DNA from: Escherichia coli
GTDB lineage: Bacteria; Pseudomonadota; Gammaproteobacteria; Enterobacterales; Enterobacteriaceae
Assembly (NCBI RefSeq): GCF_002854065.1
Contig: NZ_CP024147.1
Length of the DNA: 64,000 nucleotides
Strand: one strand, 5' to 3'
Position numbers and translations under genes: made by a program. Positions within the stretch are counted from its first letter, which is position 1; each line of letters starts with the position of its first letter. The notes under the pieces are model-generated. The model had not been told where the DNA came from. It saw only the letters and a list, made by a program, of their open reading frames with translations, and made no database searches. Shown in pieces: positions 2,145 to 39,308 of the stretch.

Positions 2145-2363
2145 TCACAGTCCCCATTGTTTGTTCTTAAGTTCGATCTCCTCCTGGCAACTCGCACAAG
2201 TCCGACAACCCTGAACAGCCAGGCGTCTTCGCTCATCTATCGGATCGCCACACTCACAACAATGAGTTGCGGATACAGTCTGGTAGTTCAGACGACGCAT
2301 TTTTATTGCTGTATTGCGCTGTAATTCTTCGATTTCTGATGCTGAATCAATGATGTCTGCCAT
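2145..2363 (-). CDS. TraR/DksA-family C4 zinc-finger protein (phage TraR-like, 72 aa)
   Basis: 72 aa with CxxC-(17)-CxxC (CCECGDPIDERRRLAVQGCRTCASCQ), typical of the TraR/DksA C-terminal zinc finger. Confidence 0.6.
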   Translation of the reverse strand: MADIIDSASEIEELQRNTAIKMRRLNYQTVSATHCCECGDPIDERRRLAVQGCRTCASCQEEIELKNKQWGL

Positions 2364-2590
2364 CTTTCATTAATCCCTGAATTGTTGGTTAATACGCTTG
2401 AGGGTAAATGCGAATAATAAAAAAGGAGCCTGTAGCTCCCTGATGATTTTGCTTTTCATGTTCACCGTTCCTTAAAGACGCCGTTCAACATGCCGATCGC
2501 CATGCTTAAATGAGTCGGTGTGAATCCCATCAGCGTTACCGTTTCGCGGTGCTTCTTTAGTATCTGGCTGAAAGAGGGGGTTATTAAGGC

Positions 2591-2953
2591 GTGAATACCT
2601 ACAGCATCACATTACCCTGGCCTCCGAGCAATAATCGCTATTACCGCCATAATCGCGGGCGCACGCACGTCAGCGCAGAGGGGCAGGCATACCGCGATAA
2701 CGTCGCCCGAATCATTAAAAACGCAATGCTGGATATCGGCCTGGCTATGCCTGTGAAAATCCGCATTGAGTGCCACATGCCGGATCGCCGTCGCCGTGAC
2801 CTGGATAATCTGCAAAAAGCCGCTTTTGACGCACTCACTAAAGCAGGTTTCTGGCTGGATGATGCTCAGGTCGTTGATTACCGCGTTGTGAAGATGCCTG
2901 TTACCAAAGGTGGGAGGCTGGAACTGACCATCACCGAAATGGGGAATGAATGA
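2591..2953 (+). CDS. rusA: Holliday-junction resolvase RusA (120 aa)
   Basis: 120 aa [18 protein letters not shown]... matching remembered RusA. Confidence 0.93.
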
Positions 2954-3090
2954 TGTTTGAGTTTTATATGGCAGAACTTCTTCGCCACCGCTGGGGGCAT
3001 CTGCGCTTATATCGTTTCCCCGGTTCTGTTTTGACCGATTACCGAATACTGAAGAGTTACGCCAAAACCCTGACAGGAGCAGGAGTATGA
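2950..3090 (+). CDS. ylcG: Small prophage protein YlcG (46 aa)
   Basis: ATG overlapping rusA stop; translates [46 protein letters not shown]; below the ORF-track size cutoff. Confidence 0.6.
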
Positions 3091-3175
3091 AGTCAGAGAT
3101 AACAATCAACTAATACTGTTTTGTTGATTTTTGCTTGTAATTGGCGTTTTGGTCTGATTTTTGTGGAGTAAGTTG

Positions 3176-3559
3176 ATGCGTGATATTCAGATGGTTCTTG
3201 AGCGTTGGGGAGCGTGGGCGGCTAATAATCATGAAGATGTGACCTGGTCGTCCATTGCCGCCGGTTTTAAGGGATTAATTCCTTCAAAAGTAAAATCTCG
3301 CCCGCAATGTTGTGACGATGACGCGATGATCATTTGCGGGTGCATGGCCCGTCTGAAAAAGAACAACAGCGATTTGCACGATTTATTAGTAGATTATTAT
3401 ATAGTCGGTATGACATTCATGTCACTGGCAGGTAAGCATTGCTGCTCTGATGGTTATATCGGGAAAAGGTTACAAAAGGCTGAGGGCATAATTGAAGGGA
3501 TGTTAATGGCATTAGATATCCGGTTAGAGATGGATATCGTTGTTAATAACTCTAATTAA
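3176..3559 (+). CDS. quuD: Late-gene antiterminator Q (QuuD-like, 127 aa)
   Basis: [24 protein letters not shown]... matches remembered DLP12 QuuD; start taken at second Met of the track ORF. Confidence 0.85.
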
Positions 3560-3584
3560 TACGCCAATTATTTACTAAAAGTTA

Positions 3585-3622
3585 TTAAAAATGGGGCGTT
3601 GAAGCGCCCCCAAAAATAAAGG
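3585..3622. terminator. Bidirectional rho-independent terminator between quuD and nmpC
   Basis: GC hairpin GGGGCG-ttgaa-GCGCCCC flanked by A-run upstream and A/T-run downstream. Confidence 0.5.
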
Positions 3623-3747
3623 GTAATATATAACAGAAGGTTTGTATAGTTAGAAGCAAGGTTGTGCTTCTAAAGGAAGTGGCTTGAGGGAGCCACTTAT
3701 ATGTTGGGGAGGCAAAGCCTCCCACAACATATCTTTTAGTAATCAAA

Positions 3748-4830
3748 TTAGAACTGGTAAACCATACCTACAGCAACGATATCATCGGTAGCAACGCCAG
3801 ATGCTTTCGTGAAATCGCTCTTATCAATCAGGTTGATTTTGTAGTCAACAAAAGTGGACATATTTTTGTTGAAGTAATAGGTTGCACCTACATCAACATA
3901 TTCAACCAGGTCCTGATCACCCCAAACACCCAAGTCTTTTCCTTTAGAATGCAGGTAAGCAACGGATGGACGCAGGCCGAAGTCGAACTGATATTGTGCA
4001 ACAGCTTCGAAGTTTTGTGCTTTGTTGGCAATATGGTTATTACCAAAAACAGTCATGTTCTGGGTTTCAGAATAGGTGGTGGCCAGATAGATGTTGTTCG
4101 CATCATATTTCAGACCAGCTGCCCATACTTCAGCATTTTGACCAGAAGCATTCAGACCGTTGTTACCGTAGATAACCTGATTATTAGTGCGATCAGATTT
4201 AGCATAGGTTGCACCCACGCCGAATCCTTCATACTCATAAGTAGTTGAGAAACCGAAACCATCGCCATTAGCTTCAGTTACTTCATTTCGGTCATTTTTG
4301 CCCTGATACTGAGCTGCAAAGTTCAGGCCATCAACCAGACCAAAGAAGTCGTTGTTACGATAAGTTGCAACACCTGTGGTGCGACCAGTCATGAACACAT
4401 CTGTTTGGGTCCAGGTATCGCCACCGAATTCTGGCAGAACGTCAGTCCACGCACCGATGTCGTATGCTACACCGTAGTTACGGCCGTAATCGATTGAGCC
4501 GTAGTCACCGAATTTCAGGCCAGCGAAGGCAAGACGGGTTTTATCTTTGGAGGAACCTTGAGATTCAGCGCGGTTGCCTTTGAATTCATATTCCCACTGA
4601 CCGAAACCAGTCAGTTGATCGTTGATTTGGGTTTCACCTTTGAAGCCAAGACGGGCATAAGTAGTATCACCATCATCTGCATCATTAGAGGAGAAGTAGT
4701 GCTTAGCATTAACTTTCCCGTACAGATCCAGCTTGTTACTGTCTTTATTATAAATTTCAGCTGCCTGAGCAGACATCGCCATCAGTACTGATGCAGCTAC
4801 AGCAGAAATTGCCACTGTTAATTTTTTCAT
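3748..4830 (-). CDS. nmpC: Outer-membrane general porin NmpC/OmpD-like, apparently intact (360 aa)
   Basis: Signal peptide [23 protein letters not shown], porin beta-barrel sequence ending in C-terminal F; uninterrupted here (K-12 copy carries IS5). Confidence 0.9.
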
Positions 4831-36963: not shown

Positions 36964-38091
<1,128 letters not shown>

Positions 38092-38531
38092 TTATGTTGG
38101 CGTTTTCTATTCAGTATAGAAGTCGGAGCGGCTGGGCGAGATGCGGAAGTTCTGGAATGTTTCTTTTTTTGGTGATGGTGAACTGATGGTGCCTGAAGCA
38201 ATTTGGCTACTTTTGCAATGTGACAAGTTATGGCACGGCTGGCTGGTGGCGAAGAATTTTGACGATTGAGGCATGCAGAAAAAACGGGCTCAGCTTCAGT
38301 TGATTAAATGAGGAGTGAGAAGTCCGAAACAGGATTTACTGTATAAATAAACAGCTATTTTGTTGAGGAAGGGTAAGATAACGGCGGGTGCCTGAAGCTT
38401 TCCGGTTTCAGGTTTACTCTGAGGTCTGGAAAGATGAAGCCCCAGGAGATATTTCTATCAACCCTGGGGCTGCCACTCCAAACCAGACAATTTGGATGGT
38501 AGTTCCTTCTTCGCATGGAGGCAATATAAAC

Positions 38532-38684
38532 ATGCTGACGAAATATGCCCTTGTGGCAGTCATAGTGCTGTGTTTGACGGTACTGGGATTTACGCTTCTG
38601 GTCGGAGACTCGCTGTGTGAGTTTACGGTGAAGGAACGTAATATTGAGTTCAGGGCTGTTCTCGCTTACGAACCGAAGAAGTAG
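38532..38684 (+). CDS. hokE: Hok-family membrane toxin, copy 1 (50 aa)
   Basis: [50 protein letters not shown]. Confidence 0.85.
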
Positions 38685-39034
38685 CCGTTGTGCGGGGAGT
38701 AATCCCCGCATATCCGGTTGTCAGGTCAGGATGGTAAGGCACCTGCTTTACACTTTCGCCCGCGGTCAGTGATGGCTGCGGGCGGTTTCGTTTTAAGAGC
38801 AATGATGAGTTTTGCCGACAGAAGTCCGAAACAGGATTCACTGTATAAATAAACAGCTATTTTGCTAAGGAAGGGTAAGATAACGGCGGGTGCCTGAAGC
38901 TTTCCGGTTTCAGGTTAACTCTGAGGTTTGGAAAGATGAAGCCCCAGGAGATATTTCTATCAATCCTGGGGCTGCCACTCCGAACCTGAACAACTCGGAT
39001 GGTAGTCCCTTCTTCGCATGGAGGCAATATAAAC

Positions 39035-39187
39035 ATGCTGACGAAATATGCCCTTGTGGCAGTCATAGTGCTGTGTTTGACGGTGCTGGGATTTACGCTT
39101 CTGGTCGGAGACTCGCTGTGTGAGTTCACCGTAAAGGAACGTAATATTGAGTTTAAGGCTGTTCTCGCTTACGAACCGAAGAAGTAG
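39035..39187 (+). CDS. hokE: Hok-family membrane toxin, copy 2 (50 aa; R42K relative to copy 1)
   Basis: [50 protein letters not shown]. Confidence 0.85.
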
Positions 39188-39308
39188 CCGTTGTGCGGGG
39201 AGCAATCCCCGCATATCCGGTTGTCAGGTCAGAGTGGTAAGGCACCTGCTTTACACTTTCGCCCGCAGTCAGTGATGGCTGCGGGCGAATCGTACCAGAT
39301 GTTGTCAA

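What the first reader, a model, noticed from the sequence alone, without database searches (positions are those of the whole stretch)
38310..39300. Tandem duplication of the hokE toxin-antitoxin locus between ybdK and entD
Two consecutive ~505-bp units, each with a mok-like leader, a 50-aa Hok ORF and the 3' stem-loops, are about 95% identical; the Hok proteins differ by one residue (R/K at position 42). As I recall it, K-12 has a single hokE followed by IS186 at this site; here there is no IS and the module is doubled. The level of divergence indicates the duplication is not very recent and both copies appear intact, which could raise toxin dosage or reflect homogenisation between the copies.
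Basis: partly seen in the sequence, partly recalled or inferred. Interest (0 to 1): 0.5.

Follow-up and report, generated by a model that had tools for sequence, protein, structure and literature searches.

The report
Common tandem hokE toxin-antitoxin pair
The window carries two complete head-to-tail copies of the small hokE/sokE toxin–antisense-RNA module between ybdK and entD; this is real, but it is an old, already reported arrangement found in roughly 44% of complete E. coli genomes.

Summary
Two head-to-tail units (38318-38784 and 38820-39287; 95.3% identical, 21 mismatches plus one 1-nt indel) are joined by a 35-nt linker. [quoted passage not shown] The two Hok proteins differ at residue 41 (R/K), not 42.

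The arrangement is not unusual. PGAP annotates "hokE x2" in many RefSeq genomes, including O157:H7. Three alleles of the unit-to-unit junction occur in 1446 + 725 + 230 of 5426 complete E. coli genomes (about 44%). The same linker is present in E. whittamii and other divergent Escherichia lineages, so the duplication predates E. coli. The duplication was explicitly reported for strain NRG857c (PMC7232551), and tandem hok "islets" are described in general. K-12's single, IS186-interrupted copy is the derived state.

One modestly new point: the Sok-recognition hairpin is the most variable segment of the unit, with four allele classes shuffled among array positions.

Verdict: real, intact, already known, low interest.

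The parts
38318..38784 (+). hokE/sokE unit 1, the repeat core (467 nt)
   Evidence: Direct repeat, 95.3% identical to unit 2. PGAP annotates hokE here in the 99.9%-identical strain CUWW06.
38785..38819 (+). 35-nt linker between the units. It begins with the U-tract of the unit-1 terminator (GTTTCGTTTT).
   Evidence: Homologous (about 80-100%) in all 17 duplicated or triplicated loci examined, including E. whittamii. The T-rich tail resembles the tail after the terminator hairpin of Citrobacter hok units.
38820..39287 (+). hokE/sokE unit 2, the repeat core (468 nt)
   Evidence: 100% identical to unit 2 of O157:H7 TR01.
38337..38356 (+). LexA (SOS) box of unit 1, TACTGTATAAATAAACAGCT
   Evidence: This and the unit-2 box are the only two CTGT-N8-ACAG matches in the 64-kb window. 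The box is present in 42/42 sampled units. hokE is a published LexA-box gene (PMC2826370; heterology index 4.9 in PMC11228462).
38839..38858 (+). LexA (SOS) box of unit 2, CACTGTATAAATAAACAGCT
38374..38379 (+). Putative hok promoter -10 (TAAGAT), unit 1. The unit-2 equivalent is at 38876-38881.
   Evidence: Position relative to the conserved mRNA 5' box. Conserved as TAnnAT across 49 hok loci. It did not pass the strict consensus scan, so this is an inference.
38384..38393 (+). 5' 'tac' box of hok mRNA, unit 1 (GCGGGUGCCU). It pairs with the fbi box at 38737-38746.
   Evidence: 10-bp 5'-3' helix in the MFE fold, z = -6.9. The 6-bp core pairs in 48/48 hok loci.
38737..38746 (+). 3' 'fbi' (fold-back inhibition) box, unit 1 (AGGCACCUGC)
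38886..38895 (+). 5' 'tac' box, unit 2. It pairs with 39240-39249.
   Evidence: MFE fold, z = -9.0.
39240..39249 (+). 3' 'fbi' box, unit 2
38386..38540 (+). hok mRNA leader of unit 1, matching Rfam RF01794
   Evidence: 80.2 bits against a gathering score of 59, E = 1e-17.
38888..39043 (+). hok mRNA leader of unit 2, matching Rfam RF01794
   Evidence: 79.3 bits, E = 2e-17.
38430..38488 (-). Sok-like antisense RNA gene of unit 1 (about 59 nt; ends placed by homology)
   Evidence: Mapped from the MG1655 sokE annotation, 607733-607792, with its 5' end 44 nt upstream of the hokE ATG. It folds as a 10-11-nt single-stranded 5' tail plus a terminator hairpin with a U-rich tail.
38932..38991 (-). Sok-like antisense RNA gene of unit 2 (about 60 nt; ends placed by homology)
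   Evidence: It differs from the unit-1 Sok by 4 edits, 3 of them within the first ~25 nt of Sok.
38496..38524 (-). Putative sok promoter of unit 1: -35 TTGCCT (38524-38519), 17-nt spacer, -10 TACCAT (38501-38496). The unit-2 equivalent is at 38999-39027.
   Evidence: Read from the sequence. The region 38496-38531 is nearly invariant in 42 units, pi 0.005. It matches the consensus at 8/12, below the scan threshold of 9/12.
38472..38500 (+). Sok-target hairpin of unit 1 (haplotype h1, 8-nt loop CCAGACAA). The unit-2 equivalent is at 38974-39003 (haplotype h3, with A.U to G.C compensatory changes in the stem).
   Evidence: helix 5 has 4 pairs with two-sided changes across 49 loci. This is the most variable 24-nt window of the unit, pi about 0.2.
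38496..38684 (+). Mok-like ORF of unit 1 (62 codons, in frame with hok)
   Evidence: The 12-codon extension [12 protein letters not shown] was read in 41 of the 42 units; in the last one my search string did not match. MG1655 mokC and hokC likewise share a stop codon, so mok is an in-frame extension there.
38999..39187 (+). Mok-like ORF of unit 2 (62 codons)
   Evidence: Listed by the ORF listing.
38532..38684 (+). hokE-1 CDS (50 aa, Arg41)
   Evidence: Translation. Pfam HOK_GEF, E = 7.7e-8. Corresponds to WP_000956467.1 'HokE' in the 99.9%-identical CUWW06 and in O157:H7 TR01.
39035..39187 (+). hokE-2 CDS (50 aa, Lys41)
   Evidence: Translation. Corresponds to WP_000956465.1 'HokE' in CUWW06. 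This is the commonest HokE sequence in the sample, 20 of 42 units.
38667..38669 (+). Tyr46 TAC codon within CUUACGAA (TadA A-to-I editing site, Y46C), unit 1. The unit-2 equivalent is at 39170-39172.
   Evidence: The motif is present in both units and in all 42 sampled units. Editing of hokE Y46C at about 40% is published for K-12 (PMC12214031, PMC5630033).
38690..38711 (+). 3'-UTR GC hairpin (GCGGGGAGUAAUCCCCGC), unit 1. This is the site where IS186 sits in K-12. The unit-2 equivalent is at 39193-39214.
   Evidence: helix 6, 94% paired across 49 loci. The K-12 IS186 junction lies here.
38756..38785 (+). Terminator hairpin of unit 1, followed by a U-tract
   Evidence: The only terminator-like site found by the scan.
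39259..39288 (+). Terminal hairpin of unit 2, with no U-tract (followed by AAUCGUACC)
   Evidence: The same tail occurs in single-unit strains and in E. albertii.

Best explanation
The region holds two complete, independently equipped hokE/sokE type I toxin-antitoxin modules, head to tail, in the ybdK-entD intergenic region. It is a widespread, ancient copy-number allele of this locus. It is not a recent event and not an artefact.

Inferred working of each unit, by homology with hok/sok of plasmid R1 and hokE/sokE of K-12:
1. A weak promoter, whose -35 position is overlapped by a LexA box, makes a roughly 400-nt hok mRNA.
2. The mRNA's 5' 'tac' box pairs with the 3' 'fbi' box, which keeps the full-length mRNA closed and untranslated.
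3. A short antisense Sok RNA is made from a promoter inside the mok/hok start region. It pairs with the leader just upstream of the mok start codon, blocks translation of the 62-codon Mok ORF and, with it, production of the 50-residue Hok peptide.
4. If Sok falls or hok transcription rises (SOS induction), Hok is made. Hok is a membrane-depolarising peptide, and its Tyr46 codon can be edited to Cys by TadA.

Shown here: the presence, integrity and conservation of all these sequence elements in both units, purifying selection on both Hok ORFs, and the population and phylogenetic distribution of the array.

Inferred, not shown: transcription, 3' processing, Sok-mediated repression, toxicity, LexA control and any dosage effect of having two units.
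For: - Repeat.
- Annotation: RefSeq genomes annotate hokE x2 at this locus, including O157:H7, O55:H7 and O111:H8.
- Frequency: the three junction alleles occur in 1446, 725 and 230 of 5426 complete genomes.
- Age: the homologous linker and the two-unit state are present in E. whittamii and two other divergent Escherichia genomes whose ybdK is only 91-96% identical.
- Leader: both leaders match Rfam RF01794 above the gathering score.
- Toxin: Pfam HOK_GEF match.
- mRNA structure: both mRNAs fold with the 5'-3' helix, z = -6.9 and -9.0. Across 49 hok loci 78% of cells pair compared with 33-45% when partners are slid, and the tac-fbi core pairs in 48/48.
- Sok: sokE coordinates transferred from MG1655; Sok folds as expected.
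- Mok: the in-frame arrangement matches mokC/hokC in MG1655.
- Integrity: intact Hok ORFs were read in 41 of 42 sampled units, and the promoter, fbi and TadA motifs are present together in 41 of 42.
- Selection: hok pN/pS = 0.067 between the two units of the window (5 synonymous changes, 1 non-synonymous) and 0.13 across units.
- LexA box: present in both units and in 42/42 sampled units.
- Literature: the duplication is reported in strain NRG857c (PMC7232551); hok islets (bioRxiv 10.1101/2025.08.07.668861); tandem type I TA loci (PMC2887945); SOS control and editing of hokE.
Against: - No expression or toxicity data exist for this strain.
- The strict sigma-70 scan found no promoter on either strand. 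The hok and sok promoters match the consensus at only about 8/12.
- The NCBIfam Hok models score below their curated cut-offs: 49 against 89 bits, and 40 against 73 bits.
- According to the literature cited (Pedersen and Gerdes 1999), wild-type chromosomal hok loci did not give post-segregational killing, so 'active killer module' is not established.
- K-12 hokE was not induced by AZT in one study (PMC11228462).
- Unit 2 lacks a U-tract after its terminal hairpin.
Confidence: 0.9

Rival explanations
1. It is a recent, strain-specific duplication, or an assembly artefact that should collapse to one unit.
For: Tandem repeats of about 500 nt can be mis-assembled from short reads. K-12 has one unit.
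Against: The units differ at 4.7% of positions, so they are not collapsed or expanded copies of the same sequence. The same two-unit structure with a homologous linker is present in about 2,400 complete genomes and in other Escherichia species. The two units fall in different allele clades, each also found in other strains.
Confidence: 0.01
2. One of the two units is a decaying, non-functional relic, so only one module works.
For: The K-12 chromosomal hok loci are regarded as inactivated (cited). Unit 1 has a 1-nt shorter target loop that lacks any U (loop CCAGACAA). Unit 2 lacks a terminator U-tract.
Against: Both units retain every element. Between them hok shows 5 synonymous and 1 conservative non-synonymous change, pN/pS 0.067. 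The target-hairpin stem shows compensatory A.U to G.C changes. Both allele classes are kept across species. Where inactivation occurs at this locus it is by IS insertion, and there is no IS here.
Confidence: 0.12
3. The two units are functionally insulated modules. Their Sok RNAs have diverged in the recognition tail so that each represses mainly its own hok mRNA, and selection favours arrays that combine different specificities.
For: The Sok 5' tail and target loop is the most variable 24-nt window, pi about 0.2 compared with synonymous divergence of about 0.10. Four allele classes recur across species and across array positions. Co-resident units differ in this segment in 18 of 19 pairs. Cognate duplexes are 7-25 kcal/mol more stable than non-cognate ones.
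Against: For the pair in this window the whole Sok region differs by only 4 edits in about 60 nt, and predicted non-cognate duplexes are still very stable, -43 to -48 kcal/mol. The sampled genomes are not phylogenetically independent. A loop may simply be less constrained. An old duplication is expected to have diverged anyway.
Confidence: 0.25
4. The modules act mainly as SOS-induced stress or persistence effectors, or as phage-defence elements, rather than as addiction (post-segregational killing) modules. On this view the second copy raises the SOS-inducible toxin dose.
For: A LexA box heads each unit and is conserved at a fixed distance from the mRNA 5' box in 17 of 48 other hok loci. hokE is listed among SOS TA genes (PMC2826370) and was induced 3.5-fold by ciprofloxacin in EDL933 (PMC11125564).
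Against: K-12 hokE was not induced by AZT and was not lexA-dependent in PMC11228462, although K-12's copy is IS-interrupted. No phenotype for hokE was found in the papers read. Nothing in the sequence can test dosage.
Confidence: 0.4

Closest known systems
hokE/sokE of E. coli K-12 MG1655 (b4415 / b4835)
   Same: Same locus (ybdK-entD). The unit is 97% identical to unit 1. It has the same Hok length, sokE position, LexA box and TadA-editable Tyr46.
   Different: K-12 has one unit, and its 3' UTR hairpin is split by IS186B, which separates hok from the fbi box and terminator. K-12 HokE carries Ala8 and Lys41 where the window's Hok-1 has Val8 and Arg41 (translation of L005). Its Sok-target loop is a third haplotype, h2.
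Annotated tandem hokE pairs in other E. coli: hok-2.1/hok-2.2 of AIEC NRG857c (PMC7232551), and hokE x2 in O157:H7, O55:H7, O111:H8 and others
   Same: Same locus, the same approximately 503-nt period and the same linker. Unit 2 is 100% identical to that of O157:H7 TR01, and strain CUWW06 is 99.9% identical over the region compared.
   Different: None of substance. Other strains combine different allele classes of the unit, for example h4+h3 in O111:H8, M18 and related strains and h2+h1 in others.
hok/sok of plasmid R1 (the paradigm type I TA system)
   Same: Hok/Gef toxin, a folded mRNA with 5'-3' tac-fbi pairing, mok-coupled translation, and a cis-antisense Sok with a single-stranded 5' tail plus a terminator hairpin.
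   Different: This locus is chromosomal and has a LexA box at its promoter. Mok is an in-frame N-terminal extension of Hok, whereas from my own recollection of the R1 sequence mok is in a different frame there. Post-segregational killing has not been shown for chromosomal loci.
Other tandem type I TA arrays in E. coli: ldrABC/rdlABC, ibsAB/sibAB and z3289/z3290 (PMC2887945)
   Same: Whole toxin-plus-antisense units repeated head to tail in one intergenic region, with copy number varying among strains.
   Different: A different toxin family and a different antisense geometry.

Membership tests
[quoted passage not shown] | Small (about 50 aa) Hok/Gef-family membrane toxin ORF | tested here: met
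   Two 50-codon ORFs. Pfam PF01848, E = 7.7e-8. NCBIfam HokA and Hok-family hits have E = 1e-10 to 1e-13 but fall below the curated cut-offs. PGAP names the corresponding genes HokE in the 99.9%-identical strain CUWW06.
[quoted passage not shown] | Leader RNA with the family's conserved sequence and structure | tested here: met
   Rfam RF01794 scores 80.2 and 79.3 bits against a gathering score of 59. The model matches the strand of the hok mRNA. Leader hairpins show two-sided compensatory changes across 49 loci.
[quoted passage not shown] | Long-range pairing of the mRNA 5' end (tac) with a 3' box (fbi) | tested here: met
   10-bp helices 38384-38393/38737-38746 and 38886-38895/39240-39249 in the MFE folds. 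The 6-bp core pairs in 48/48 hok loci.
[quoted passage not shown] | Cis-encoded antisense Sok RNA gene (promoter, 5' tail, terminator hairpin) opposite the leader, just upstream of the mok start | tested here: met
   Positional homology with the annotated MG1655 sokE. Predicted fold is a tail plus a hairpin with a U-rich tail. The -35 TTGCCT / 17 nt / -10 TACCAT region is nearly invariant. The promoter matches the consensus at 8/12, below the scan threshold. Transcription itself was not testable.
[quoted passage not shown] | mok reading frame through which hok translation is coupled | tested here: met
   62-codon ORFs 38496-38684 and 38999-39187, in frame with hok as for MG1655 mokC/hokC. The extension was read unchanged in 41 of 42 units. 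Coupling itself was not testable.
[quoted passage not shown] | Toxicity of Hok, Sok-dependent repression, 3' processing of the mRNA, post-segregational killing | not testable with these tools
   These need experiments. HokE overexpression is reported as toxic (bioRxiv 10.1101/2025.08.07.668861). Chromosomal loci did not give post-segregational killing (same source, citing Pedersen and Gerdes 1999).
LexA (SOS) regulon gene | CTG-N10-CAG palindrome with an AT-rich spacer at the promoter | tested here: met
   38339-38354 and 38841-38856 are the only two matches in 64 kb. They match the 20-nt consensus at 16/20 and 15/20, and the box is present in 42/42 units.
LexA (SOS) regulon gene | LexA binding and DNA-damage induction | not testable with these tools
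   The literature is mixed. The Lex box and SOS induction are cited in PMC2826370 and PMC1891008. Induction was 3.5-fold in EDL933 after ciprofloxacin (PMC11125564). There was no AZT induction in K-12 (PMC11228462).
Tandem type I TA arrays with antitoxin discrimination (as described for ibs/sib) | Each antisense RNA represses only its cognate toxin mRNA | tested here: inconclusive
   Differences cluster in the Sok 5' tail. However, the window pair differs by only 3-4 edits, and predicted non-cognate duplexes remain stable.

The most novel reading that the evidence does not exclude
The hokE array is an ancient, trans-species polymorphism in which the Sok-recognition hairpin has split into at least four specificity classes. 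On this reading unequal crossing-over and gene conversion shuffle these classes among array positions, and selection favours genomes whose co-resident units carry different classes. The result would be two or three mutually insulated, SOS-inducible toxin switches rather than a simple dosage increase.
Probability: 0.2. Interest if true: 0.4.

Novelty: already known. Interest (0 to 1): 0.12.

Why it matters
It matters little as a discovery. The doubled hokE is a routine feature of non-K-12 E. coli, it is annotated in RefSeq, and it has been noted in print.

It is useful as a reminder of three things:
- K-12's single, IS186-split hokE is the derived and probably crippled state.
- Wild strains often carry two or three intact, LexA-boxed hokE/sokE modules. 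Studies of SOS-induced toxins, persistence or TadA editing done in K-12 may therefore under-represent this locus.
- Reads, probes and knock-outs for 'hokE' in O157:H7 and many other strains must distinguish two paralogues that differ at about 5% of positions.

The clustering of variation in the Sok-recognition hairpin would be of some interest to specialists in antisense-RNA specificity, if it proves to be selected.

Tried and rejected
- Tandem Repeats Finder returned nothing because its longest period is 500 and this repeat has period 503. The repeat finder and alignment were used instead.
- The sigma-70 consensus scan found no promoter on either strand. The promoters were therefore placed by homology and conservation, and are marked as inferred.
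- The first literature searches with 'hokE' were swamped by the surname Hoke. Whole-word searches combined with gene names worked.
- The first Hok and Mok coordinates I used for unit 1 were off by one. They were corrected to ATG 38532 and 38496.
- Counting doubled loci from the whole-region BLAST was unreliable because single-unit loci also reach 98% query coverage. Junction-specific queries replaced it.
- The IS186-hokE junction count (1919 genomes) is only an upper bound, because the hokC-IS186 junction is similar.
- 'Plasmid' hits to the array are mostly chromosome-sized records in PLSDB and were not pursued.
- The idea that an upstream ORF starting at GTG 38388/38890 is mok was rejected. 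The 1-nt loop indel puts it in different frames in the two units, whereas the ATG at 38496/38998-39001 region (38496 in unit 1, 38999 in unit 2) lies downstream of the indel, is conserved, and is in frame with hok as in mokC/hokC.
- The idea that the linker is foreign DNA was rejected. Its first half resembles the T-rich terminator tail of Citrobacter hok units, and its second half weakly resembles the flank upstream of unit 1.
- Full insulation of the two Sok RNAs could not be supported.
Full report
**1. Observation**

The repeat finder reports two direct-repeat families, 38318-38487 / 38820-38989 (95%) and 38487-38784 / 38990-39287 (96%), with start-to-start spacing of 502 and 503 nt. Alignment and blastn give 95.3% identity over 468 columns, with 21 mismatches and a single 1-nt indel. 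The shared core is 38318-38784 for unit 1 and 38820-39287 for unit 2, and a 35-nt linker (38785-38819) joins them. Tandem Repeats Finder was silent only because its maximum period is 500.

The flanking genes are ybdK (36964-38082, minus strand) and entD (from 39309, minus strand). Each unit encodes a 50-residue Hok, at 38532-38684 and 39035-39187.

**2. What it is**

- *Toxin.* The ORFs match Pfam HOK_GEF. PGAP names the corresponding genes HokE (WP_000956467.1 and WP_000956465.1) in strain CUWW06, which is 99.9% identical over the region compared. The NCBIfam Hok models hit with E = 1e-10 to 1e-13 but fall below their curated cut-offs.
- *Leader.* Both leaders match Rfam RF01794 above its gathering score (80.2 and 79.3 bits against 59). 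That model matches the hok-mRNA strand.
- *mRNA fold.* Both predicted mRNAs of about 400 nt fold far better than shuffles (z = -6.9 and -9.0). In both, the 5' end (GCGGGUGCCU) pairs with a 3' box (AGGCACCUGC). This is the tac-fbi lock of the R1 paradigm.
- *Covariation.* On an alignment of 49 hok loci from Escherichia, Citrobacter, Klebsiella, Enterobacter and relatives, the 6-bp core of the tac-fbi helix pairs in 48/48. The leader hairpins and the Sok-target hairpin show many two-sided compensatory changes. Overall 78% of cells pair, compared with 33-45% when partners are slid.
- *Sok.* Transferring the curated MG1655 sokE coordinates (60 nt, with its 5' end 44 nt upstream of the hokE ATG) places Sok-like genes at about 38430-38488 and 38932-38991 on the minus strand. 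Each folds into a 10-11-nt single-stranded 5' tail followed by a terminator hairpin with a U-rich tail. Each lies downstream of a -35 TTGCCT / 17 nt / -10 TACCAT motif in a nearly invariant segment. This promoter matches the consensus at only 8/12 and did not pass the generic scan.
- *Mok.* A 62-codon ORF (38496-38684 and 38999-39187) extends Hok by [12 protein letters not shown]. In MG1655, mokC and hokC share a stop codon, so mok is an in-frame extension there too. I therefore read these ORFs as the mokE equivalents. The extension was read unchanged in 41 of 42 sampled units.
- *Editing site.* Both units keep the Tyr46 TAC codon within CUUACGAA. This is the site at which K-12 hokE mRNA is edited to Cys by TadA at about 40% (PMC12214031 and PMC5630033).
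These are the only two CTGT-N8-ACAG matches in the whole 64-kb window. The box is present in all 42 sampled units. It also sits at a fixed 31-nt distance (or 41-43 nt) from the mRNA 5' box in 17 of 48 other hok loci. hokE is a known Lex-box / SOS gene (PMC2826370, PMC1891008), with a heterology index of 4.9 (PMC11228462). It was induced 3.5-fold by ciprofloxacin in EDL933 (PMC11125564), although K-12's copy was not induced by AZT (PMC11228462).

**3. How common and how old**

RefSeq annotates "hokE (x2)" at this locus in many complete genomes. Examples are O157:H7, O55:H7, O111:H8 and O126:H45.

A 71-nt query spanning the unit-to-unit junction can only match a duplicated locus. It is found in 1446 of 5426 complete genomes. 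Two diverged alleles of the same linker add 725 and 230 genomes. The total is about 2,400 genomes, or roughly 44%, with slight double counting possible for triple arrays. One strain with three units was examined (GPEC1165).

K-12's state, one unit with IS186B in the 3'-UTR GC hairpin, occurs in at most about a third of genomes. That figure is an upper bound because hokC has a similar IS186 junction.

A scan of one genome per GTDB species found hokE orthologues between ybdK and entD in other Escherichia lineages:
- E. whittamii, Escherichia sp. MOD1-EC7003 and 'E. coli' SCPM-O-B-8794 have two units. Their ybdK is only 91-96% identical to the window's.
- Escherichia sp. E1V33 has one unit between ybdK and entD. 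E. albertii also has one unit next to entD, but no ybdK was found within the roughly 2.8 kb fetched upstream.

The 35-nt linker is homologous in all 17 multi-unit loci examined, including those species. The most economical reading is a single duplication that predates the diversification of E. coli, followed by repeated collapse to one unit and occasional expansion to three. Spread by recombination between lineages cannot be excluded.

**4. Structure of the variation**

I aligned 42 units from 24 genomes.
- Units do not cluster by genome or by array position. They cluster into allele classes. Window unit 1 groups with unit 1 of O157:H7 and O55:H7. Window unit 2 groups with the entD-proximal units of many strains and with the single units of O145:H28, E1V33 and E. 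albertii. K-12's single unit belongs to a third class.
- Hok is under purifying selection. Between the two units of the window there are 5 synonymous changes and 1 non-synonymous change (pN/pS 0.067), and the mean across units is 0.13.
- The sok promoter, hok SD and start region (38496-38545) and the end of hok (38656-38695) are essentially invariant.
- The Sok 5' tail and target hairpin (38467-38495) is the most variable 24-nt window of the unit. Its pi is about 0.2, compared with a unit mean of 0.044 and synonymous divergence of about 0.10.
- Four hairpin haplotypes recur, and all keep the hairpin. Unit 2's haplotype has A.U to G.C compensatory changes in the stem.
- Co-resident units differ in this segment in 18 of 19 pairs. 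The exception, PEC240, looks like a gene-conversion tract.
- For this window the two Sok regions differ by only 4 edits, and predicted non-cognate duplexes remain very stable (-43 to -48 kcal/mol, compared with -55 to -57 for cognate pairs). I therefore cannot claim that the two modules are insulated from each other.

**5. Mechanism**

Most likely each unit works as an autonomous hokE/sokE module.
1. LexA-controlled transcription produces a stable, closed hok mRNA.
2. Sok pairs with the leader immediately upstream of the mok start and prevents mok and hok translation.
3. Loss of Sok, or SOS induction, lets Hok, a membrane-depolarising peptide, be made.
4. TadA editing supplies the second cysteine.

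The sequence elements, their conservation and the selection on them are shown here. Transcription, mRNA processing, repression, toxicity, LexA binding and any effect of having two copies are inferred from the R1 and K-12 literature and were not testable.

Whether chromosomal hok loci have a physiological role is unsettled. The literature reports no post-segregational killing by wild-type chromosomal loci.

**6. Comparison with what is known, and novelty**

The closest known object is the same locus in other strains. The duplication is listed for AIEC NRG857c as hok-2.1 ("homologous to hokE") and hok-2.2 ("duplication of hok-2.1"), with starts 504 bp apart (PMC7232551). Tandem hok "islets" account for 13.5% of chromosomal hok genes in Escherichia (bioRxiv 10.1101/2025.08.07.668861). 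Tandem repetition is a recognised hallmark of type I TA loci (PMC2887945).

The finding is therefore real but already known. I did not find the following points stated in the papers I read: the estimate of about 44% frequency, the evidence that the duplication predates E. coli, and the concentration of diversity in the Sok-recognition hairpin with allele classes shuffled between array positions. These are incremental.

**7. Verdict**

- Novelty: already known.
- Interest: 0.12.

Noticed in passing
window 38339-38354 and 38841-38856: Each hokE unit begins with a LexA box (CTGTATAAATAAACAG). These are the only two CTGT-N8-ACAG matches in the 64-kb window. The same box sits at a fixed distance (31 nt, or 41-43 nt) from the mRNA 5' box in 17 of 48 hok loci from Citrobacter, Klebsiella, Enterobacter, Phytobacter, Kosakonia and Pseudocitrobacter. 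That defines an SOS-box sub-lineage of hok.
   Followed up: yes
window 39259-39300 compared with 38756-38798: The entD-proximal unit has the terminal hairpin but no U-tract (GCGGGCGAAUCGUACC). The internal unit has GUUUCGUUUU. Single-unit strains and E. albertii share the U-less tail, so hokE transcripts from the last unit may terminate or be processed differently.
   Followed up: partly
window 38467-38495 and 38969-38998; alignment of 42 units: The Sok 5' tail and target hairpin is the most variable part of the unit (pi about 0.2, above synonymous-site divergence). It has four allele classes shared across species and shuffled between array positions. Unit 1's loop (CCAGACAA) is 1 nt shorter than the others and contains no U.
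   Followed up: partly
L065 (PS2Canimalfeces3), L069 (MS6193), L072 (ecoli019), L071 (S1-THA-01-A), L005 (MG1655): The locus is a hotspot for insertions and rearrangements. IS186 sits in the 3'-UTR GC hairpin in K-12 and in both units in L065. ISEcp1 replaces unit 1 in L069. IS150 interrupts the unit-1 leader in L072. SDR oxidoreductase genes lie downstream of unit 2 in place of entD in L071.
   Followed up: no
window 38355-38711 (-) and 38857-39129 (-); L001 1897-2164 (-) and equivalents: PGAP annotates 'hypothetical protein' ORFs, often flagged as frameshifted or incomplete, antisense to the hok leader in many genomes. They overlap the Sok and hok elements and are probably spurious calls.
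   Followed up: no
L004 (GPEC1165) 2910-4384; L067 (PEC240): GPEC1165 carries three hokE units, each with a different Sok-target haplotype. PEC240's unit 2 has the unit-1 haplotype in its 5' half, which looks like a gene-conversion tract.
   Followed up: partly
L026 (Klebsiella spallanzanii) 1233-2099; L046 (Enterobacter sp. JUb54) 2307-3185; L032: Tandem pairs of LexA-box hok units also occur in other genera, so tandem duplication of this hok sub-lineage is not confined to Escherichia.
   Followed up: no
plasmid hits H85-H88; L059 (Marinobacter sp. B9-2 contig): Fragments of the hokE unit occur on plasmids of 113-280 kb. A 2.3-kb 'Marinobacter' contig carries a 95%-identical HokE fragment, which is probably contamination.
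   Followed up: no
window 38141-38269 (+): A 42-codon ORF in the ybdK-hokE spacer is annotated as a hypothetical protein (WP_032280461.1) in O157:H7 TR01. It was not examined.
   Followed up: no
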